Part shown: piece after piece, positions 5,444 to 64,000 of the stretch
Position numbering within the stretch: the first letter of the stretch is position 1
Layout of the letters: the number at the start of each line of letters is the position of its first letter
NCBI GenBank assembly: GCA_046293175.1
Contig: JBKBPM010000002.1
Location: 158,428 to 222,427 of the forward strand
Source: Minisyncoccia bacterium
Lineage (GTDB): Bacteria; Patescibacteriota; Minisyncoccia; Phycocordibacterales; UBA918
Reading direction: 5' to 3'
Length of the DNA: 64,000 nucleotides
The notes under the pieces: generated by a model
What the model saw: the letters and a program-made list of their open reading frames with translations, nothing else
Told to the model about the DNA's origin: nothing
The model's database searches: none
Translations under genes and position numbers: made by a program

Positions 5444-7830
5444 CCAAAAAACCTGCCCCTGAAACCCTTGTCCTGTTAGACGCTCACGCGATTTTACACC
5501 GGGCCTTTCATGCGTTGCCTGACTTCACGTCACCAAGTGGAGAACCAACTGGCGCTTTGTATGGGGTAGTAGCTATGCTCTTGCGGATTATTGAAGAGTT
5601 TAAACCAACCTACATTGCTGCTTGTTTTGACTTACCAGAGCCAACCTATCGGCACGATGCGTATGCAGATTACAAAGGGACGCGAACCAAAACGGATGAA
5701 GCACTGGTGATGCAGATCAAACGATCCTATGATATTTTTGCTGCTTTTGGTATTCCCGTCTTTGAAGTAGCTGGGTTTGAGGCTGACGATATGCTCGGTA
5801 CCATTGCCCACCAAATGAAGGAACATAAAACAATTGAAGTTGTTATTGCTTCGGGTGATATGGATACACTTCAGTGTGTAGATAAAAAGCGGGTGAAAGT
5901 ATATACCCTCAAAAAAGGCATTAATGACACCATTCTCTACGACGAGGCAGCAGTGCTCGAACGGTTTGGCTTTCCGCCAAAGCTTGTTCCTGACTACAAA
6001 GGTTTGCGGGGAGACACCTCAGATAACATTCCGGGTATCCGGGGTATTGGCGAAAAGACCGCTAGTGATTTGATTAGGCAATTTGGTAGCCTTGAGGCCA
6101 TCTACAAGGTTCTTAAAAAAGATCCAGAGAAACTCAAAACTGCTGGTATCAAAGATCGGATGATAGGTCTCTTGCGTGATGGGGAAGAGGAAGCGCTTTT
6201 TTCAAAAATGCTCGCGACCATTCGCACCGATGCACCAATTACTATAGATCTTGAAACGATGCGCTGGCGTGAAAAGCTTGATACTGAACGCATTGGCGCC
6301 CTGTTTGGTGAGTTTGGTTTTCGTACCTTAGGAGCTCGGGTCAAAAGTATTATTGGTGCGACGCTTCCGACACCTGATGAGTCTACATTTGGGGCGAGTA
6401 ACGTGAGTCACGAGCAGTTAACTCGACTCCAAATCTATCTTTGGCTGCTTGAGAGTGAGCGTACCAATGCATCCCTTTCAGATATTATCGACTATGGTCG
6501 GGCGTACCTTGGTACCACTGAACCCACTACTATTGAAACCGCGCTCGAGGCACGGCTCAAAGAGGAAGGGACCTGGCGTGTGTACGAAGAAATCGAGGCA
6601 CCTCTGATACCGGTCCTTGCGTACATGCATGAGGTGGGAATTTCACTTGATGTGCCGTACCTGAAGACGCTCTCAGTAAAAATGCACGACGAACTCACCA
6701 AGCTCGAAACCGCGATTTATGAAGCAGCAGGGCAGACCTTTAATATCAATTCTCCAAAACAGCTGGGAGATATCTTGTTTGATACTTTAGGATTAAAACC
6801 AAAGCAGCAAAAGAAAACGGCGGGTGGGCAACGTTCAACCAAAGAGTCTGAACTCGAGAAGATGCGCGATATGCATCCGATCATTGATTACATTATGCGG
6901 TATCGGGAATTACAGAAATTGGTATCGACCTACATCGATAATCTCCCGACCTATGTGGCAAGTGATGGCCGGGTACACACTACCTTCATTCAAACTGGGG
7001 CCGCGACCGGCCGTATGGCGTCACAAAATCCAGGTCTCCAAAATATCCCGGTACGGACCGAAGAGAGTCGAGCTATTAGACAAGCTTTTGTTGCTACGCC
7101 GGGGTACACACTCGTGTCAATCGATTACTCACAAATCGAACTGCGGGTAGCGGCGATTCTCTCGCGTGATGAAAAGCTCATCGATATCTTCAAGCGTGGG
7201 GAGGATGTGCATACGGGGGTCGCTATGCGCGTCTTTGGGGTGACGGCAGAAGAAGTTACGAAGGACATGCGCCGCAAAGCTAAGGTGATCAACTTTGGTA
7301 TTCTTTATGGTATGGGCGTTAATGCGCTGCGGGGTAACCTCGGTGATGATACAAGTCGGGAAGAAGCCCAACAGTTCTACACTGCTTACTTTAATACCTT
7401 CACCACCCTCGCCGCTTACCTTGAAGACACTAAAGCCGCGGCGCGACGTGATGGGTATACAAAAACCCTTTTTGGTCGTCGTCGTCATTTTCCGGGTATC
7501 AATTCAGGTGCACCCTTTATTCGCGCCATGGCCGAACGCATGGCGATTAATGCACCAGTCCAGGGTACGGCAGCCGATATGATGCGGGTAGCGATGATTA
7601 ACATCTACACCCGTCTTACACTTGAGAATAAAACTGATATCGTCCGCATGCTCCTCCAGGTACACGACGAACTCGTTTTTGAGATTAAAGATGAGGTGCT
7701 CGCCAAAGAAATTGGTGTGCTTAAAGCCGAGATGGAAGCGGTACTTGCTGACTTTGAGACCTACGGAGTACCACTGACTGCTGAAGCTGCAACCGGAAAA
7801 AATTGGGGGGAGTTGGTACCCTACAAATAA
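5440..7830 (+). CDS. polA: DNA polymerase I (5'-3' exonuclease + polymerase domains; no obvious 3'-5' exonuclease domain)
   Basis: 796 aa; 5'-3' exo N-terminus, family A polymerase motifs (RRxAKxxNFGxxYG, QVHDELV); start overlaps tsaE stop (ATGA). Confidence 0.9.
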   Translation: MTKKPAPETLVLLDAHAILHRAFHALPDFTSPSGEPTGALYGVVAMLLRIIEEFKPTYIAACFDLPEPTYRHDAYADYKGTRTKTDEALVMQIKRSYDIFAAFGIPVFEVAGFEADDMLGTIAHQMKEHKTIEVVIASGDMDTLQCVDKKRVKVYTLKKGINDTILYDEAAVLERFGFPPKLVPDYKGLRGDTSDNIPGIRGIGEKTASDLIRQFGSLEAIYKVLKKDPEKLKTAGIKDRMIGLLRDGEEEALFSKMLATIRTDAPITIDLETMRWREKLDTERIGALFGEFGFRTLGARVKSIIGATLPTPDESTFGASNVSHEQLTRLQIYLWLLESERTNASLSDIIDYGRAYLGTTEPTTIETALEARLKEEGTWRVYEEIEAPLIPVLAYMHEVGISLDVPYLKTLSVKMHDELTKLETAIYEAAGQTFNINSPKQLGDILFDTLGLKPKQQKKTAGGQRSTKESELEKMRDMHPIIDYIMRYRELQKLVSTYIDNLPTYVASDGRVHTTFIQTGAATGRMASQNPGLQNIPVRTEESRAIRQAFVATPGYTLVSIDYSQIELRVAAILSRDEKLIDIFKRGEDVHTGVAMRVFGVTAEEVTKDMRRKAKVINFGILYGMGVNALRGNLGDDTSREEAQQFYTAYFNTFTTLAAYLEDTKAAARRDGYTKTLFGRRRHFPGINSGAPFIRAMAERMAINAPVQGTAADMMRVAMINIYTRLTLENKTDIVRMLLQVHDELVFEIKDEVLAKEIGVLKAEMEAVLADFETYGVPLTAEAATGKNWGELVPYK

Positions 7831-58515: not shown

Positions 58516-60201
58516 ATGGAAGCTGTTATCTGTGCTGCTATCAAAGACGCGCTGGTCGAACTTGGTCTCCCCGAGGTAGTTTTTTCCATTGAGCACCCGA
58601 AGATCCTTGATCATGGTGATTACGCCTGCAACATAGCGATGGTTCTGGGTAAGCAGGTGGGGCAGGCACCACGCACGCTAGCGGAGCAAATCCTTGCGAA
58701 GCTTCAAGGTCAGATTGAGTATGTTGAGCGGATCGAAATCGCTGGTCCGGGTTTTTTGAACTTTTACCTCAGTCGAGACTTGTTCTCAGCTGAAGCTGTC
58801 CGTGTTTTACAGCTGGGAGACACTTGGGGTAAAAATGATAGTTGGTCAGACAAAAAAGTAGTTGTTGAATATACCGACCCCAATCCGTTTAAAGAGTTTC
58901 ATATTGGTCATCTTTTTACCAATGCCGTTGGTGAATCAATCGCTCGTCTTTTTATGATGAATGGAGCTGAAGTGAAGCGTGTTTGTTACCAAGGTGATGT
59001 TGGTCTTCATGTGGCGTATGCGCTTTGGGGTATGCAAGAACTTGGTATTACTGCGCAGAGCGATTTTACTGCAAAGGATTTGGGTCGTGCCTATGCCCTT
59101 GGTGCCACCACGTACAAAAACGATGAGTCCAAGCAAGAGATGATTCGATCGATTAATAAGGCGGTGTATGATCGTAGTAACGAAGAACTAAACGCCCTTT
59201 ATGACGCAGGACGAACTATTTCTCTAGCGTATTTTGAAACTATTTATCAGACAGTAGGAACCAAGTTCGACGAGTACTTTTTTGAAAGTGAAGCTGGTCC
59301 ACGCGGCAAACAGCTGGTTTTAGATAACCCTACCCATTTCGGAGAAAGTGATGGTGCGCGTGTATTTAAGGGTGAAGACTACGGGCTTCATACTCGAGTA
59401 TTTCTAAATAAAGAAGGTCTCCCGACGTACGAAGCAAAAGAGCTTGCACTTGCAAAAATGAAAGAAGAAAAGCTTGGTGTTTACGATCACTCAGTCATTT
59501 CTACCGCCAAAGAAATCAATGAGTATTTCAAGGTACTTCTAAAGGCTATGAGTTTTGTCTATCCCGATTTAGCTGCTAAGACCGAACATATTGGTCATGG
59601 TATGGTTCGTCTTACTACTGGGAAGATGTCATCGCGAACAGGTGATGTTATTCCAGCTCTTGAATTTATTGAGGATGTCGCAGCTACTGCGCGCGAACGA
59701 ATTGATGCGTCAGGTGTTTCCAGAGCTACCGATACACTTGCGACCCAAATCGCTGTGGCCGCTATAAAGTACGCAACTCTAAAGGGAAGTATTTTCCAAG
59801 ACTCTGTTTTTGATAAAGAGAAAGCCCTCTCTTTTGAAGGGGACTCCGGTCCATACCTGCAATACACGTATGCGCGCTGTCTTTCAGTCCTTGAGAAAGC
59901 GAGGGACGTAGGAATCGAGCCGCAACTTGCGCCAGCACCTGAAGTCCCATACGTGCTAGAACGTATTCTCTACCGTTTTCCCGAAGCGGTGGAGGAGGCG
60001 CTAGACGAGCGAGCGCCACACACTGTCGTAACATACCTCACCGAACTGGCCGGAGAATTTAATTCTTTCTATGCGCATGAAATGATTGCAGATGCGAGTG
60101 ATATATACGCACCATACAAAACCTTACTGACCAGTGCGGTGGCGACCACACTCAAGAACGGCCTTTGGGTCCTTGGTATTGAAGCACCAGAACGACTCTA
60201 A
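58516..60201 (+). CDS. argS: Arginine--tRNA ligase
   Basis: 561 aa; HIGH-type motif PNPFKEFHIGHL, class I ArgS C-terminal anticodon-binding pattern. Confidence 0.9.
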   Translation: MEAVICAAIKDALVELGLPEVVFSIEHPKILDHGDYACNIAMVLGKQVGQAPRTLAEQILAKLQGQIEYVERIEIAGPGFLNFYLSRDLFSAEAVRVLQLGDTWGKNDSWSDKKVVVEYTDPNPFKEFHIGHLFTNAVGESIARLFMMNGAEVKRVCYQGDVGLHVAYALWGMQELGITAQSDFTAKDLGRAYALGATTYKNDESKQEMIRSINKAVYDRSNEELNALYDAGRTISLAYFETIYQTVGTKFDEYFFESEAGPRGKQLVLDNPTHFGESDGARVFKGEDYGLHTRVFLNKEGLPTYEAKELALAKMKEEKLGVYDHSVISTAKEINEYFKVLLKAMSFVYPDLAAKTEHIGHGMVRLTTGKMSSRTGDVIPALEFIEDVAATARERIDASGVSRATDTLATQIAVAAIKYATLKGSIFQDSVFDKEKALSFEGDSGPYLQYTYARCLSVLEKARDVGIEPQLAPAPEVPYVLERILYRFPEAVEEALDERAPHTVVTYLTELAGEFNSFYAHEMIADASDIYAPYKTLLTSAVATTLKNGLWVLGIEAPERL

Positions 60202-60275
60202 TGACCTTGACGGTAATACTGACGGGTGTACGATTATAGTCTATCCGCTTCAGAGAGGAGATGATGAAGATGGGG

Positions 60276-60377
60276 TGATGTTTTTTGTGGTAATTATCGG
60301 TCTGTTAGGACTGATGCTCTACGACATACTCGAAATAAGTATGCGTTGTGGTCGAGCAAGGAAACTGAGCGGGTAAC
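60276..60377 (+). CDS. Candidate small hydrophobic peptide (33 aa, one TM helix)
   Basis: GAGGAG SD-like at 60252; MFFVVIIGLLGLMLYDILEISMRCGRARKLSG; followed by terminator GAGCGGGTAACACCCGCTCTTTGCTTTG. Confidence 0.3.
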
Positions 60378-60516
60378 ACCCGCTCTTTGCTTTGTATCAT
60401 TCGCCAAACCAAAGAATCGTGGTACTATCTGAATTACCGGCCTGATATGTCGGTGTAAGTAAGGGGTCCGACCCCTAACTGGCATTAATAATGTCTGATA
60501 TACATTTTATATTTTT

Positions 60517-63500
60517 ATGTCTAAACAACACGGTCGTGAAAACGACAGTGTCGAGGTAGTAACCTCGACCCCAAAGAGTGACGTTGCTCTGCGCGAAGAG
60601 ACTATTCTCGCGTTTTGGCAAGAGCACGATATTTTTAATAAAACACTAGCGACCCCAGCTGGGGAAGCACCAATTGGTGACTACGTCTTCTATGACGGAC
60701 CACCGTTTGCGACCGGGACACCACACTACGGTCATATACTAGCAAGTACCATCAAGGACGCTGTGCCACGCTTTTGGACTATGCGCGGTTACCGCGTCCC
60801 ACGGAAGTGGGGCTGGGACTGTCATGGTCTGCCACTTGAAAACCTCATCGAGAAGAAACTTGGCCTCGCCACGAAGCGCGACATCGAAGACTATGGCGTG
60901 AAGAACTTCAACGAAGCCGCGCGTGGCACCGTGATGGAGTATGCTGATTATTGGAAGATGGCTATCCCTCGGATGGGACGCTGGGCCGACATGGAGAATG
61001 ACTACAAGACCATGGACAGTACCTACACCGAAAGTGTTTGGTGGGTCTTCTCTGAACTCTACAAAAAAGGTCTTGCCTTTGAAGGCTTCAAGACTATGCA
61101 CCTCTGTCCACGCTGTGGGACAACCCTCTCAAACTTTGAAGTAAACCAGGGCTATAAAGATATCAAAGATATCGCGGTGACGGTGAAGTTGCCACTCCTT
61201 GATGAACAGGGTGCTGTGACTGATACCTCACTCCTCGTGTGGACGACCACTCCCTGGACACTCCCAGGGAACTTGGCGGCTGCTATCAATCGTGAGTTTG
61301 ATTATGTGAAGGTGGCGTTGACTTCCGATGGCGTAACAGAAAATCTTATTATCGCCAAAGGACGCCTCGTACAGCTCGGTGATGCATCGTACGACATAAT
61401 CGAAGAAATGAAGGGCGAAGCCTTGATTGGTCGACGTTATCAACCACCATTTCCATTTTTGGCAGGACAGTCGTTTGACCAGACGAATGCCTGGAAGATT
61501 TGGCATGCGGACTATGTCGAGCTCGGTGAAGAGGGGACCGGTGCTGTGCATATTGCTCCTGCTTATGGTGAGGATGACATGCAGCTCGCGAAGACTAATG
61601 GCGTGCCAATTGTTCACCACGTCGACGAGAGCGGTCGCTTCAAAGACTGGGTGACGGGCTTTAACTGTGCGCTGGTGAAGCCAAAAGATGATGATGCTGC
61701 AGGTGTCGATCACAAAGACACTGATATCGAAATCCTCAAGTCTCTCCAGGCCGCGGGCAAGATTTTTAAGAAAGAGAACATCACGCACAGCTACCCACAC
61801 TGTTGGCGCTGTGATACGCCACTCCTCAATTACGCGACTACCTCGTGGTTTGTGAACGTACCAAAGATCAAAGACGAACTCGTCGCCGTGAACAGCGAAG
61901 TTAATTGGGTGCCAGATCACGTCGGTACCAATCGCTTCGGGAAGTGGCTTGAAGGCGCCCGCGACTGGGCTATCTCTCGTCAGCGCTACTGGGGAGCACC
62001 ACTCCCAATCTGGAAAAATCCGACCACTGGTGAGGTGAAGGTTATTGGCTCGCTTAAGGACCTCCAGTCATATATTCGTAAGAGTGGCAACACCTACACC
62101 ATCACCCGTCATGCTGAGGCAGAGAGTAATATCACGGGTGTGATTGACGCGTTTGCCGATGAGAGCAATCACCTCACTGATAATGGTCGGGCACAGGCCA
62201 AAGCTACTGCCGAGACACTTCGATCTCGCGGTGTTACCCGAATTGTCCACTCGGGAATGACCCGAGCCCGCGAGACGGCCGAACTTATTGCAGCCGAACT
62301 CGGACTTCCGAGTGATGCTGTCATTGCCGATGTAAGACTACAAGAATTTAAGGTAGGAACCGAGTGGGAAGGTAAGACCTGGGCCGAGTTCAACTCGCAG
62401 TTTGCCACTGAGGAAGAAAAGTTTGAGAAGACTTTTACTGGAGGAGAGAGTCGGTACGATCTCCTCAAGCGTGTCGGAGCGTGGCTTTATGAATATGAGT
62501 CCAAGCACCAAAATGAACATACTCTGGTTGTTGGGCACGGTAGTTCACTGTTTGCCCTTGAGGCGGTAGCGCGTGGAGCCAATCACGTAGAAATGATGAC
62601 ACTCAAAAAACAGGGTTACCTGAGCAATAGTGAAGTCCGTGACTTGCCATTTACACCGGTCCCACACAATGACCTCTTCCAGCTCGACTACCATCGACCA
62701 TATATCGACGAGATAGAACTCTTCGATACTGACGGTACGAAGCTCGAGCGTATCAAAGACGTCTTTGACTGTTGGTTTGAAAGTGGGTCGATGCCGTACG
62801 CGCAGCACCACTACATGGGAGAGAATCCTGAAGCCTTTGTGGGTACCTGCTTCCCAGCACAGTTTATCGCCGAAGGGCTGGATCAGACACGTGGATGGTT
62901 CTACTCACTGATTGTGCTTGGTACCGCACTTTTTGGTCGCTCTCCGTACGAGAACGTGATCGTAAACGGTCTGGCACTCGCGGAAGATGGCAAGAAAATG
63001 TCGAAGAGTCTCCGCAATTATCCTGATCCGATGGAGCTCGTAGACCGGGTTGGTGCCGACGCTATCCGTTACTACATGATGTCTGCGCCAATTATTCGTG
63101 GCGAAGACCTCAACTTCAGTGAGAAGGAAGTAACTGAACAACAGCGCAAGAATATTGGTCGTTTGCACAATGTACTCGCCATGTACGAGATGTACGCAGA
63201 TGGTACCAAGGCAGATGGTACATCGAGCAATGTCCTCGACTGCTGGATTGTCTCACGCCTCAATCAGCTGATTGGGGAAGTGACAGCTGGCTACGAAAGC
63301 TACGAGCTTGATAAAGCCACTCGTCCACTGGCTGACTTTATCGATGATGTGTCTGTCTGGTACCTCCGCCGCAGTCGTGAGCGCCTGAAGCAGGATTCGA
63401 AAATTGAGGCATCTCCGTCGTTGCGGGTCCCAGCCGATTCTTTCGCCGTAGCAGAAAGTACGTCTCCATCATCAGCTTTCCCGCGCCTTGCATCTGACAC

Positions 63501-64000
63501 TCAATTATCAAATCCTGAGACAAGCGATAAAGAATTGGCATTAGGAACCCTCCGCTTTATCCTGCGAGAACTGGCGAAGGTAATGGCACCAGCCATGCCG
63601 TTCTACGCTGAGTATCTCTACCGCGCGGTGCGCGATGAGAGCGAAGCTGAGAGTGTGCATCTCACGAAGTGGCCGGTAGCAGGGGATACAAACGAGGAGG
63701 TTGTTGAATTGATGAAGCAGGTACGAGAAGTGGTGACCGCAGCCCTTGAAGCACGCACCAAGTCTGGTATCAAAGTGCGTCAGCCCATCGCGAGTGTCAC
63801 TGGTCCAGAGTTGCCAGCGGAGTACCAGTCAATTGTCCTCGATGAACTTAATGCCAAGAGCTATCTAGTAGGGGAGATGATAGCGATTGATACCAACCTC
63901 ACCCCAGAACTTATCGCCGAAGGAGCGGTGCGCGAACTCATGCGGGCCATCCAGGATATGCGTAAAAAGGCCGACCTTACTCCAGCGGATCTCGTTATAC
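60517..64000 (+). CDS. ileS: Isoleucine--tRNA ligase, 5' partial (runs off window end), with inserted histidine-phosphatase-like domain
   Basis: My own frame-1 translation (no track ORF, because no stop in window): PPFATGTPHYGH (HIGH), ...KMSKS; insertion ~62030-62760 contains RHAEAESN...LVVGHGSS (histidine phosphatase/PGAM signature). Confidence 0.9.
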   Translation, partial: MSKQHGRENDSVEVVTSTPKSDVALREETILAFWQEHDIFNKTLATPAGEAPIGDYVFYDGPPFATGTPHYGHILASTIKDAVPRFWTMRGYRVPRKWGWDCHGLPLENLIEKKLGLATKRDIEDYGVKNFNEAARGTVMEYADYWKMAIPRMGRWADMENDYKTMDSTYTESVWWVFSELYKKGLAFEGFKTMHLCPRCGTTLSNFEVNQGYKDIKDIAVTVKLPLLDEQGAVTDTSLLVWTTTPWTLPGNLAAAINREFDYVKVALTSDGVTENLIIAKGRLVQLGDASYDIIEEMKGEALIGRRYQPPFPFLAGQSFDQTNAWKIWHADYVELGEEGTGAVHIAPAYGEDDMQLAKTNGVPIVHHVDESGRFKDWVTGFNCALVKPKDDDAAGVDHKDTDIEILKSLQAAGKIFKKENITHSYPHCWRCDTPLLNYATTSWFVNVPKIKDELVAVNSEVNWVPDHVGTNRFGKWLEGARDWAISRQRYWGAPLPIWKNPTTGEVKVIGSLKDLQSYIRKSGNTYTITRHAEAESNITGVIDAFADESNHLTDNGRAQAKATAETLRSRGVTRIVHSGMTRARETAELIAAELGLPSDAVIADVRLQEFKVGTEWEGKTWAEFNSQFATEEEKFEKTFTGGESRYDLLKRVGAWLYEYESKHQNEHTLVVGHGSSLFALEAVARGANHVEMMTLKKQGYLSNSEVRDLPFTPVPHNDLFQLDYHRPYIDEIELFDTDGTKLERIKDVFDCWFESGSMPYAQHHYMGENPEAFVGTCFPAQFIAEGLDQTRGWFYSLIVLGTALFGRSPYENVIVNGLALAEDGKKMSKSLRNYPDPMELVDRVGADAIRYYMMSAPIIRGEDLNFSEKEVTEQQRKNIGRLHNVLAMYEMYADGTKADGTSSNVLDCWIVSRLNQLIGEVTAGYESYELDKATRPLADFIDDVSVWYLRRSRERLKQDSKIEASPSLRVPADSFAVAESTSPSSAFPRLASDTQLSNPETSDKELALGTLRFILRELAKVMAPAMPFYAEYLYRAVRDESEAESVHLTKWPVAGDTNEEVVELMKQVREVVTAALEARTKSGIKVRQPIASVTGPELPAEYQSIVLDELNAKSYLVGEMIAIDTNLTPELIAEGAVRELMRAIQDMRKKADLTPADLVI

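What the first reader, a model, noticed from the sequence alone, without database searches (positions are those of the whole stretch)
62030..62760. Histidine-phosphatase (PGAM/SixA-like) domain inserted into the catalytic core of IleS
Between the region after WAISRQRYWGAPLPIWK and the ...DCWFESGSMPYAQ segment, where most IleS have a short connector, this IleS carries ~240 extra residues. They contain both signature motifs of the histidine phosphatase superfamily: RHAEAESN (the RHG-type catalytic His) and LVVGHGSSLFAL (the second His). The reading frame is continuous and there are no intein motifs, so it is a genuine domain insertion. It could be a phosphatase acting on a nucleotide or aminoacyl-adenylate analogue, a moonlighting enzyme, or a regulatory domain.
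Basis: seen in the sequence. Interest (0 to 1): 0.65.

Follow-up and report, generated by a model that had tools for sequence, protein, structure and literature searches.

The report
Phosphatase domain nested inside isoleucyl-tRNA synthetase
The enzyme that loads isoleucine onto tRNA in this small uncultivated bacterium has a complete, apparently working phosphatase built into its catalytic core; related bacteria keep the same phosphatase as a separate gene directly next to the synthetase gene, so the two probably work together for a purpose I found described nowhere.

Summary
The ileS ORF (ATG 60517, runs off the window) encodes a type-2 IleRS. About 205 residues (aa 519-723, nt 62071-62685) replace an ~8-residue loop of the CP3 subdomain. 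The insert is a full histidine-phosphatase domain (Pfam PF00300, E 5e-30; AlphaFold pLDDT 91; nearest solved fold is PhoE). It is PhoE-like, not SixA-like.

The insertion is old and selected:
- 80 of 80 GTDB loci examined, all Patescibacteria, carry it at the same site in one ORF.
- Its length stays at 198-212 aa.
- The catalytic residues R531, H532, R583, E610 and H674 are invariant in 81 of 81 sequences.

New here: close standalone homologues (~190 aa) exist. In 54 of 65 metagenomic loci the standalone gene lies directly upstream of an insert-less ileS, usually between argS and ileS. No locus has both forms at this position. The same phosphatase clade also occurs in tandem copies in IleRS, nested in ValRS, and once fused to ArgRS.

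I conclude it is a dedicated phosphatase partner of class Ia synthetases. Its substrate is unknown. I found no literature or curated family for it. Verdict: a new variant of accessory-domain synthetases, of high interest.

The parts
60517..64000 (+). ileS, a type-2 (eukaryote-like) isoleucyl-tRNA synthetase. The ORF starts at ATG 60517 and runs off the window end (at least 1161 aa).
   Evidence: Translation. TIGR00392 ileS scores 831.7 bits against a cutoff of 621.4. The full-length AF2 model has pLDDT 89 and pTM 0.85. Foldseek matches IleRS2 8C8V/8C9D, yeast 7D5C/8WND and 1ILE (TMt 0.92). The HIGH-type, KMSKS and editing TTTPWT / GTG.VH.AP motifs are conserved in 81 homologues.
62071..62685 (+). 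The inserted segment, aa 519-723 (~205 aa). It is nested in the loop between the two helices of the CP3 subdomain.
   Evidence: PDB alignments leave query 519-723 unmatched between yeast IleRS residues 490 and 499, and between C. albicans residues 497 and 505. CP3 spans Sc 459-526 and Ca 473-534 (PMC7955072, PMC7191050). The insert length is 198-212 aa in 81 homologues.
62101..62589 (+). Core of the histidine phosphatase (PF00300 His_Phos_1) domain, aa 529-691.
   Evidence: Pfam E 5.5e-30. The AF2 model of the insert has pLDDT 91.3 and pTM 0.89. The top Foldseek PDB hits are PhoE 1H2E (E 1e-13), Rv2419c and PspA.
62107..62112 (+). R531-H532 of the 'RHA' (RHG-type) motif. H532 is the predicted phospho-accepting nucleophile.
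   Evidence: The codons cgt and cat are read directly. Both residues are invariant in 81/81 nested copies and 64/64 standalone copies.
62263..62265 (+). R583, the second phosphate-pocket arginine.
   Evidence: Invariant in 81/81 and 64/64.
62344..62346 (+). E610, the predicted general acid/base, in the motif RLQE.
   Evidence: Invariant in 81/81 nested copies. In standalone copies it is E in 50 and D in 14 of 64.
62536..62538 (+). H674, the second catalytic histidine, in the motif VVGHG.
   Evidence: Invariant in 81/81 and 64/64.
62650..62709 (+). Conserved C-terminal junction F-x-P-x-P-H-N-x-x-[YF]-x-L-D-x-H-R-P-Y-I-D, which leads back into the second CP3 helix.
   Evidence: Conservation string over 81 sequences. 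Ten-residue-block mean pLDDT is 95 for both blocks spanning 701-720 and 96 for 721-730 in the full-length model.
58516..60201 (+). argS, the upstream neighbour. In sister lineages the standalone phosphatase gene sits between argS and ileS.
   Evidence: Pfam PF03485, PF00750 and PF05746. Synteny was examined.

Best explanation
What it is (shown): the window's ileS encodes a canonical type-2 IleRS. A complete PhoE/GpmB-like histidine phosphatase domain is nested in the alpha-alpha loop of its CP3 subdomain. CP3 is the variable connective module that flanks the synthetic active site. The domain keeps every residue of the superfamily's catalytic core: R531 and H532 (nucleophile), N538, R583, E610 (acid/base) and H674. 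It should therefore hydrolyse phosphomonoesters through a phospho-His532 intermediate, as PhoE does.

Where it comes from (shown): it is the fused form of a Patescibacteria-specific phosphatase. In sister lineages that phosphatase is a separate ~190-aa gene lying directly upstream of an insert-less ileS, usually between argS and ileS. No locus examined has both a nested domain and a standalone copy between argS and ileS. Domains of the same clade have also been nested in ValRS, duplicated in tandem inside IleRS, and once fused to the C-terminus of ArgRS.

How it most likely works (inferred): the phosphatase is a dedicated partner of class Ia synthetases and is held on the enzyme. The model suggests it is held rigidly: pTM is 0.85 and there are no low-confidence linkers. 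From there it removes a phosphate from something that the synthetase binds or releases.

My leading guess for the substrate is a phosphorylated adenine-nucleotide species or a 2'/3'-phosphorylated tRNA acceptor end that would otherwise block aminoacylation. The substrate itself is not shown by any result here.

My confidences are about 0.95 for identity and catalytic competence, about 0.55 for a synthetase-coupled function, and at most 0.2 for any single substrate.
For: - Domain identity: Pfam PF00300 at E 5.5e-30; AF2 of the insert gives pLDDT 91.3; Foldseek's top hit is PhoE 1H2E at E 1e-13.
- Exact delimitation inside CP3.
- Selection: 80/80 GTDB loci have one continuous ORF of about 1100-1300 aa. 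The catalytic residues are invariant in 81/81. Insert length is 198-212 aa, and mean pairwise identity is 39.6%, against 45-60% for the IleRS domains. The IleRS motifs are intact.
- Scale: 492 cluster representatives at 50% identity match at E<=1e-30.
- Separate-gene versus fused-domain (Rosetta-stone) link: standalone homologues lie 1-10 nt upstream of an insert-less ileS. In a metagenome sample, 54 of 65 standalone copies have ileS directly downstream, 4 more have it within 2.3 kb, and 2 are convergent with it. Fifteen loci are nested, and no locus has both forms. Only 1 of 80 GTDB nested loci has an extra copy, and it is about 4 kb downstream.
- Recurrence in other hosts and at other sites: tandem or second copies in IleRS and four copies in a ValRS; five ValRS clusters with PF00300; a valS locus that is not next to argS/ileS; an ArgS fusion.
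- Rigid placement: in the full-length AF2 model (pTM 0.85) all 10-residue blocks over 511-730 have pLDDT >=84.
- CP3 and the CP2-CP3 linker border the active site and the tRNA-CCA pocket (PMC7955072, PMC12077802).
Against: - No result identifies the substrate.
- The nearest solved relatives (PhoE, phosphoserine phosphatase PspA, glucosyl-3-phosphoglycerate phosphatase) all act on small metabolites.
- The domain is acidic, not basic: net charge is -8 in the window and -4.5 on average. This gives no support for RNA binding.
- The order argS-ileS is itself conserved, so part of the adjacency could be inherited synteny. Fusions between neighbouring genes can also be neutral.
- The ValRS and ArgRS examples come from few, fragmentary, low-coverage or frameshifted contigs.
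- Model coordinates are not exposed by the tools. I could not measure how the phosphatase pocket is oriented relative to the Ile-AMP or A76 sites.
- Only IleRS carries the domain in most genomes. That is odd for a general repair or clearance function.
Confidence: 0.55

Rival explanations
1. Hitch-hiking housekeeping enzyme. The domain is an autonomous small-molecule phosphatase or mutase, for example a short dPGM-type phosphoglycerate mutase, a phosphoserine phosphatase or a sugar-phosphate phosphatase. Its chemistry has nothing to do with aminoacylation. It sat in the argS-ileS operon for co-expression and became fused to its neighbour by neutral, ratchet-like evolution in small, reduced genomes.
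For: The closest solved and curated relatives are metabolic phosphatases or mutases, although all score below curated cutoffs. The domain is acidic. It folds confidently on its own. Standalone forms exist. The ArgS fusion looks like a simple loss of a stop codon between neighbours.
Against: Moving an upstream gene into an internal loop of ileS is not a simple read-through fusion. The same clade was nested independently in ValRS at a locus away from argS/ileS, and at several different sites. Tandem expansion to 2-4 intact copies inside synthetases is hard to explain by neutrality. No curated dPGM, CobC, GpmB or PspA model reaches its cutoff.
Confidence: 0.3
2. Built-in protein phosphatase. The domain dephosphorylates IleRS itself or a translation partner. 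It would counter inhibitory phosphorylation of synthetases by HipA-type kinase toxins. I know the HipA precedent from GltX and TrpS; I did not test it here.
For: The superfamily contains protein phosphatases (PGAM5, SixA), and these appear as weak hits. The phosphatase is tightly tethered to the presumed target. It associates with several synthetases.
Against: The sequence and fold neighbours are PhoE-type, not SixA or PGAM5. SixA scores far below its cutoff. I saw no kinase partner in the conserved neighbourhood.
Confidence: 0.08
3. Structural or scaffolding module. The domain serves oligomerisation or assembly of synthetases. PGAM-like folds often dimerise, which I state from my own knowledge. 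On this reading catalysis is irrelevant.
For: The packing is rigid and confidently predicted. The domain replaces a variable CP3 loop that carries a zinc module in other IleRS (PMC7191050).
Against: All catalytic residues are invariant in 81/81 nested copies. In 64/64 standalone copies R531, H532, R583 and H674 are invariant and E610 is conservatively E or D. By my reading of the sequence, each of the three complete copies in the four-domain ValRS also keeps them. This pattern is not expected for a purely structural role.
Confidence: 0.05
4. Artefact or selfish element: a chimeric assembly, an intein, or a recently inserted mobile gene.
For: The junction ends in a conserved ...P-H-N, which superficially resembles the His-Asn end of an intein.
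Against: The same in-frame architecture appears in 80 independent GTDB assemblies and 15 metagenome contigs. No Hint domain is found. The residue after HN is Asp/Glu-type, not Cys, Ser or Thr. The whole insert is a His_Phos fold. The insert GC equals that of its flanks.
Confidence: 0.01

Closest known systems
Bacillus stearothermophilus PhoE (YhfR; PDB 1H2E/1EBB), with related broad-specificity phosphatases of the dPGM branch (H. thermophilus PspA 4IJ5, M. tuberculosis Rv2419c 4PZ9)
   Same: They share the fold and the catalytic core: the RHG-type nucleophile His, two Arg, Glu and a second His, plus the L-T-x-x-G and G-E-S motifs. These are the best sequence and Foldseek matches. The insert presumably uses the same phospho-histidine mechanism.
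   Different: Identity is only ~25%. PhoE is a free-standing protein, whereas this domain is nested in a synthetase or encoded next to one. The family has its own invariant Asn six residues before the RH motif and lacks the C-terminal ~30 positions of the Pfam profile. It reaches none of the curated NCBIfam phosphatase or mutase cutoffs that appear among its hits.
IleRS with an inserted N-acetyltransferase domain (NCBIfam NF040702 'ileS_w_GNAT'; example fragment P0050)
   Same: It is also a type-2-like IleRS that hosts an extra catalytic domain inside the connective-peptide region. This shows that the scaffold tolerates nested enzymes.
   Different: The inserted enzyme differs (GNAT, not a phosphatase). 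In P0050 the insertion site is upstream of the GRFGKWLEGARDW segment, not in the CP3 loop. The window protein scores 295 bits against a cutoff of 1999 for that model.
The CP1 editing domain of class Ia synthetases (IleRS, ValRS, LeuRS)
   Same: It is a second hydrolytic active site nested in the Rossmann-fold catalytic domain of the same enzymes, and it acts on a species produced by the synthetic site. This is the precedent for the idea that a nested domain works on what the host handles. [quoted passage not shown]
   Different: CP1 is universal in the class and is an ester hydrolase for mischarged tRNA. The domain here is lineage-specific, belongs to an unrelated superfamily and performs phosphoryl transfer. 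CP1 is still present and intact in this protein.
Bifunctional RNase H / acid phosphatase (NCBIfam NF005567, PRK07238)
   Same: A PhoE/CobC-like His_Phos domain is covalently joined to a nucleic-acid enzyme. It is among the best NCBIfam hits to the insert and the top hit to standalone P0283.
   Different: It is a terminal fusion, not a nested one, and the partner enzyme differs. Scores are far below the cutoff (60-90 bits against 326).

Membership tests
Histidine phosphatase superfamily, branch 1 (Pfam PF00300) | Profile match above the curated gathering score | tested here: met
   104.9 bits against a cutoff of 21.7, E 5.5e-30, aa 529-691.
Histidine phosphatase superfamily, branch 1 (Pfam PF00300) | Catalytic core: RHG-type Arg-His (nucleophile), second Arg, Glu proton donor and second His | tested here: met
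   R531, H532, R583, E610 and H674 are present. They are invariant in 81/81 nested homologues. In 64 standalone homologues all are invariant except E610, which is E or D.
Histidine phosphatase superfamily, branch 1 (Pfam PF00300) | Alpha/beta fold of dPGM/PhoE type | tested here: met
   The AF2 model has pLDDT 91.3 and pTM 0.89. Foldseek matches 1H2E at E 1.3e-13 with TMt 0.73, and 298 PDB chains match at E<=0.001; the 50 best listed are all histidine-phosphatase/PGAM-superfamily entries.
Histidine phosphatase superfamily, branch 1 (Pfam PF00300) | Phosphomonoesterase or mutase activity through a phospho-His intermediate | not testable with these tools
   This needs an enzyme assay with an H532A control.
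   26-29 bits against a cutoff of 74.5, and only profile positions 5-71 match.
Cofactor-dependent phosphoglycerate mutase (TIGR01258 pgm_1; NF038349 dPGM_arch) | Curated model score above the cutoff | tested here: not met
   The insert scores 17 bits against 81.7 and 57-60 bits against 225. Standalone P0245 scores 102 bits against 225.
Alpha-ribazole phosphatase CobC (TIGR03162) / GpmB (NF002901) / PspA (NF045917) | Curated model score above the cutoff | tested here: not met
   73-77 bits against 162.9, 47-51 against 261, and 52-56 against 350. The standalone copies also fall below these cutoffs.
Isoleucyl-tRNA synthetase, type 2 (TIGR00392 ileS) | Equivalog score above the cutoff, plus the class I signature and editing motifs | tested here: met
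   831.7 bits against 621.4. PHYGH, KMSKS, TTTPWT and GTGAVHIAP are present and conserved among the 81. Foldseek matches IleRS2 and eukaryotic IleRS.
Mupirocin-resistance IleRS MupA/MupB (NF000257/NF000258) | Exception-model score above the cutoff | tested here: not met
   620-669 bits against a cutoff of 1900. This reflects general type-2 similarity only.
Intein | Hint-domain blocks, a Cys/Ser at the N-junction, and His-Asn followed by Cys/Ser/Thr at the C-junction | tested here: not met
   No Hint family appears in Pfam. The insert is entirely a His_Phos fold. The conserved ...PHN is followed by D/E-type residues, and the N-junction reads KSGN-x-Y.

The most novel reading that the evidence does not exclude
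The nested (or adjacent) phosphatase is an acceptor-end repair activity built into class Ia synthetases. It would remove a 2'/3'-phosphate or pyrophosphate from A76 of tRNA(Ile) and tRNA(Val) while the tRNA is bound. Such ends are left by tRNA-CCA-pyrophosphorylating toxSAS/CapRel-type toxins or by end-cleaving RNases. This would give these episymbiotic bacteria intrinsic immunity against attacks on tRNA charging. The rare IleRS variant that also carries a P-loop kinase-like domain (P0301) would then be an end-healing kinase/phosphatase pair. Nothing here excludes this reading. The only indirect support is the tethering next to the CCA pocket and the recurrence in several tRNA-binding synthetases.
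Probability: 0.13. Interest if true: 0.9.

Novelty: new variant of a known kind. Interest (0 to 1): 0.72.

Why it matters
Aminoacyl-tRNA synthetases are among the best-studied enzymes. Their known nested catalytic module is the CP1 editing domain. Here a second, unrelated hydrolytic active site, a phosphatase, sits fixed inside the catalytic core of IleRS across a large radiation of Patescibacteria. The same phosphatase also exists as a gene partner next to ileS and recurs in ValRS. This implies a phosphoryl-transfer step linked to tRNA charging that has no described counterpart.

Whatever the substrate turns out to be (a damaged tRNA end, an inhibitory nucleotide, or the synthetase itself), it would reveal a new layer of quality control or defence in translation. 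It would also say something about the physiology of an uncultivated, host-dependent phylum. The separate-gene and nested pair gives a natural experimental design: separate subunits against the fused enzyme. Even if the hitch-hiker rival is right, this is an unusually clean and datable case of a neighbouring gene being nested into an essential enzyme.

Tried and rejected
- Chance or intein: rejected.
- Assembly chimera: rejected by 80 GTDB and 15 metagenome loci that show the same continuous ORF.
- Recent horizontal insertion: rejected. The insert GC equals that of its flanks and the feature is clade-wide.
- SixA, dPGM, CobC, GpmB or PspA membership: none reaches its curated cutoff.
- RNA-binding signature: net charge and pI of the insert show it is acidic. 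This is a weak test and gives no support.
- A second, standalone paralogue in the 64-kb window: none. One of the 80 GTDB loci has one about 4 kb downstream.
- Alternative genetic code 25 as the reason for the broken valS calls in L174: rejected. There is no in-frame TGA, and the breaks are frameshifts.
- Conserved neighbours as functional clues: ArgS, RecO, a membrane protein, GlyRS and SHMT show only housekeeping synteny.
- The afdb50 fold library was unavailable.
- The search for homologous proteins returned only proteins of about 530 aa or less, so full-length proteins had to come from the GTDB loci and the representative library.
- Nine literature searches found nothing on IleRS or ValRS with a histidine phosphatase or PGAM domain or were used for CP3 definitions. 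One paper on domain insertions was also checked.
- I could not measure the distance or orientation between the two active sites, because model coordinates are not exposed.
Full report
**Observation.** The region lies in a single ORF that starts at ATG 60517 on the + strand and runs off the end of the window, giving at least 1161 codons. Pfam finds tRNA-synt_1 (PF00133) on both sides of a His_Phos_1 match (PF00300) at aa 529-691. That match scores 104.9 bits against a gathering score of 21.7, E 5.5e-30. No Hint or intein family is found. NCBIfam calls the protein ileS (TIGR00392, 831.7 bits against 621.4).

Phmmer against PDB chains aligns aa 26-518 to yeast IleRS 13-490 and aa 724-964 to 499-749. 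The C. albicans enzyme gives the same break, at residues 497 and 505. The extra segment is therefore aa 519-723, about 205 aa (nt 62071-62685), and it replaces a loop of about 8 residues.

**Where the insert sits in IleRS.** Published domain maps place C. albicans residues 473-534 and yeast residues 459-526 in the CP3 connective subdomain. CP3 has a beta-beta-alpha-alpha topology, and its fold and zinc content vary between IleRS lineages (PMC7191050, PMC7955072). The insertion point lies in the loop between the two CP3 helices. The CP2-CP3 linker just upstream (ARDWxxSRxRYWG) lines the tRNA-CCA and reveromycin pocket (PMC7955072). CP3 residues also border the active site in a network analysis of the Plasmodium enzyme (PMC12077802).

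The host enzyme looks fully functional. HIGH-type, KMSKS and the editing motifs TTTPWT and GTG.VH.AP are present and conserved. A full-length AlphaFold model (39-sequence alignment; pLDDT 89.0, pTM 0.85) matches type-2 IleRS structures: P. megaterium IleRS2, yeast IleRS, and T. thermophilus 1ILE at TMt 0.92.

**What the insert is.** Modelled alone with short flanks, it folds with pLDDT 91.3 and pTM 0.89. Its best Foldseek PDB matches are B. stearothermophilus PhoE (1H2E, E 1.3e-13), M. tuberculosis glucosyl-3-phosphoglycerate phosphatase and H. thermophilus phosphoserine phosphatase. The same proteins lead the sequence search of the PDB.

It is a PhoE/GpmB-like member of the dPGM branch. It reaches no curated NCBIfam cutoff for SixA, dPGM, CobC, GpmB or PspA. 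'SixA-like' is therefore not supported. In the full-length model every 10-residue block from 511 to 730 has mean pLDDT of at least 84, mostly 92-97, so no flexible linkers are predicted.

**Distribution and selection.** Of those 600 pattern hits, 242 encode a relative of the query. The best 80 loci are all Patescibacteria. Their labels include Nomura-, Kaiser-, Adler-, Taylor-, Zambryskii- and Vogelbacteria, Paceibacterota and Minisyncoccia, and many MAGs labelled Saccharibacteria.

Every locus has one continuous ORF through the N-terminal IleRS half, the phosphatase and the C-terminal half. These ORFs are about 1100-1300 aa where the locus is complete. In an 81-sequence alignment:
- R531, H532, N538, R583, E610, E644, R652 and H674 are invariant.
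- Insert length is 198-212 aa (median 205).
- Mean pairwise identity of the insert is 39.6%, against 45-60% for the IleRS domains.
- The junction F-x-P-x-P-H-N..Y-E-L-D-x-H-R-P-Y-I-D is conserved.

Insert GC equals flank GC. A profile search of 1.84 billion cluster representatives gives 492 proteins at E<=1e-30. Most of the top 150 are IleRS with the domain at about residues 470-720. The insertion is ancient, vertically inherited and under purifying selection for catalysis.

**The key new finding.** Among those representatives are genuine ~190-aa standalone proteins with their own start and stop. They match only the phosphatase part of the profile. Looking up their contigs shows the gene 1-10 nt upstream of an insert-less ileS (931-962 aa). 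The synteny is the same as in the window: argS, then the phosphatase, then ileS..., then recO.

I then scanned metagenome contigs with a profile of the standalone proteins and classified the best 80 loci:
- 15 have the domain nested in IleRS.
- 65 have it standalone.

Of the 65 standalone loci:
- 54 have ileS starting directly downstream on the same strand.
- 4 have ileS 0.7-2.3 kb downstream.
- 2 have ileS convergent.
- 5 sit on contigs too short to tell.

No locus has both forms. Their IleRS aligns to the window protein as 27-518 plus 726-1160, which is exactly the window protein without the insert. Conversely, none of the 80 GTDB nested loci has a phosphatase gene between argS and ileS, and only one has a copy, about 4 kb downstream. 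The standalone copies keep R, H, R and H invariant (64/64), with E610 as E or D. A rough neighbour-joining tree without support values separates all synthetase-associated phosphatases from generic PhoE-like proteins. It places eight standalone proteins as sister to the nested clade.

This is a separate-gene versus fused-domain (Rosetta-stone) relationship: the same protein is a neighbouring gene in some lineages and a nested domain in others.

**Recurrence.** The same clade turns up in other arrangements:
- IleRS with two tandem copies in CP3.
- IleRS with a second copy between the catalytic and anticodon-binding domains.
- An IleRS (P0301) with the CP3 phosphatase plus a weakly matching P-loop kinase-like domain inserted after DCWFESGSMPYAS.
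- A ValRS (P0158) with four copies.

A search with the ValRS junction found five clusters of ValRS fragments with PF00300. Three have the domain between IPVWY and DTLDTWFSSG, which corresponds to CP3, and one has it at a different site. One such valS locus is not next to argS/ileS. One contig has ArgS fused in frame to the phosphatase, with no stop codon between ...GISSPQQ and MKRIELNNKYYIMRHG. These rarer cases rest on few, partly low-coverage or frameshifted contigs, so I treat them as supportive rather than secure.

**Interpretation.** Four things are shown:
- The domain identity and its intact catalytic machinery.
- Long-term selection.
- The insertion site in CP3.
- The genomic coupling, either adjacent or nested.

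The mechanism of coupling is inferred. The evidence for a function tied to class Ia synthetases is: tight and near-universal adjacency to ileS; mutual exclusivity of the two forms; independent nesting into ValRS at a locus away from argS/ileS; tandem amplification inside synthetases; and predicted rigid docking. I consider this more likely than an unrelated metabolic role, at about 0.55 against 0.3.

The chemistry should be that of PhoE: phosphoryl transfer to H532, with R531, R583 and H674 forming the phosphate pocket and E610 acting as acid/base. The substrate is unknown. Candidates are:
- a phosphorylated adenine nucleotide that competes at the synthetic site;
- a 2'/3'-phosphorylated or pyrophosphorylated tRNA acceptor end;
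- the synthetase itself.

Against an RNA substrate, the domain is acidic and all characterised neighbours act on small molecules.

**Novelty.** No curated NCBIfam model reaches its cutoff on this architecture, although one exists for an IleRS with a GNAT domain (NF040702). NCBI names fragments only 'class I tRNA ligase family protein' or 'histidine phosphatase family protein'. Searches of 8 million full texts found nothing that combines IleRS or ValRS with a histidine phosphatase or PGAM domain. Both parts belong to well-known families, and synthetases with accessory domains are a known phenomenon. I therefore rate it a new variant of a known kind, with high interest.

Noticed in passing
window 63394-63534 (IleS aa 960-1006): A 47-aa low-complexity Ser/Pro/Ala-rich segment (DSKIEASPSLRVPADSFAVAESTSPSSAFPRLASDTQLSNPETSDKE) is inserted after RRSRERLKQ in the anticodon-binding region. 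AF2 predicts it disordered (pLDDT ~30). Relatives have a median of 7 aa here; only L008 has a comparable 46 aa. A 95%-identical fragment (P0029) has a diverged version of it.
   Followed up: partly
P0301 (IleRS representative, 1395 aa), residues ~740-870: This IleRS carries the CP3 phosphatase and also a P-loop domain (Walker A GACGAGKT) inserted after DCWFESGSMPYAS. The P-loop domain has weak hits to AAA_18/AAA_33 and to adenylyl-sulfate and shikimate kinase models. A kinase-like and a phosphatase module therefore sit in one synthetase.
   Followed up: partly
P0158 / L092-L093; P0303-P0307; L174 8369-12188: ValRS proteins carry one to four His_Phos domains of the same clade, in CP3 and at other sites. 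The L174 valS is broken by frameshifts rather than by a recoded stop codon.
   Followed up: partly
L107 3381-5567: A single ORF encodes ArgRS fused in frame to the phosphatase, and ileS follows immediately at 5567. There is no stop codon between the two parts. It may be a real fusion or a sequencing error.
   Followed up: partly
P0028 (TARA fragment); P0205, P0227, P0264, P0272, P0279, P0302; P0221, P0250, P0284, P0285: These are IleRS variants with two phosphatase domains. In some the two are tandem in CP3, with one on each side of the LDLH(K/R) helix in P0028. In others the second copy lies between the catalytic and anticodon-binding domains.
   Followed up: partly
P0050 and NCBIfam NF040702: IleRS with a GNAT acetyltransferase domain inserted upstream of the GRFGKWLEGARDW segment. 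It is another nested enzyme in the same scaffold and already has a curated NCBIfam model.
   Followed up: no
P0027: A related IleRS (56% identity in the flanks) has no phosphatase at the CP3 site. Instead it has a ~30-aa low-complexity linker (LSLRVTNRSEAISNSNVEIASVATLPRNDTTM). This could be a remnant of loss or an independent expansion of the loop.
   Followed up: no
L029 11805-12350: This is the only one of 80 GTDB loci with a nested domain that also has a standalone 181-aa homologue. The homologue scores E 3e-25 against the insert HMM and lies about 4 kb downstream of ileS.
   Followed up: no
window 60202-60516: The argS-ileS spacer is 315 nt long, at the position where relatives carry the standalone phosphatase gene. 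No Rfam family, including T-box, reaches its gathering score there. Only seven tRNA genes were found in the whole window.
   Followed up: partly
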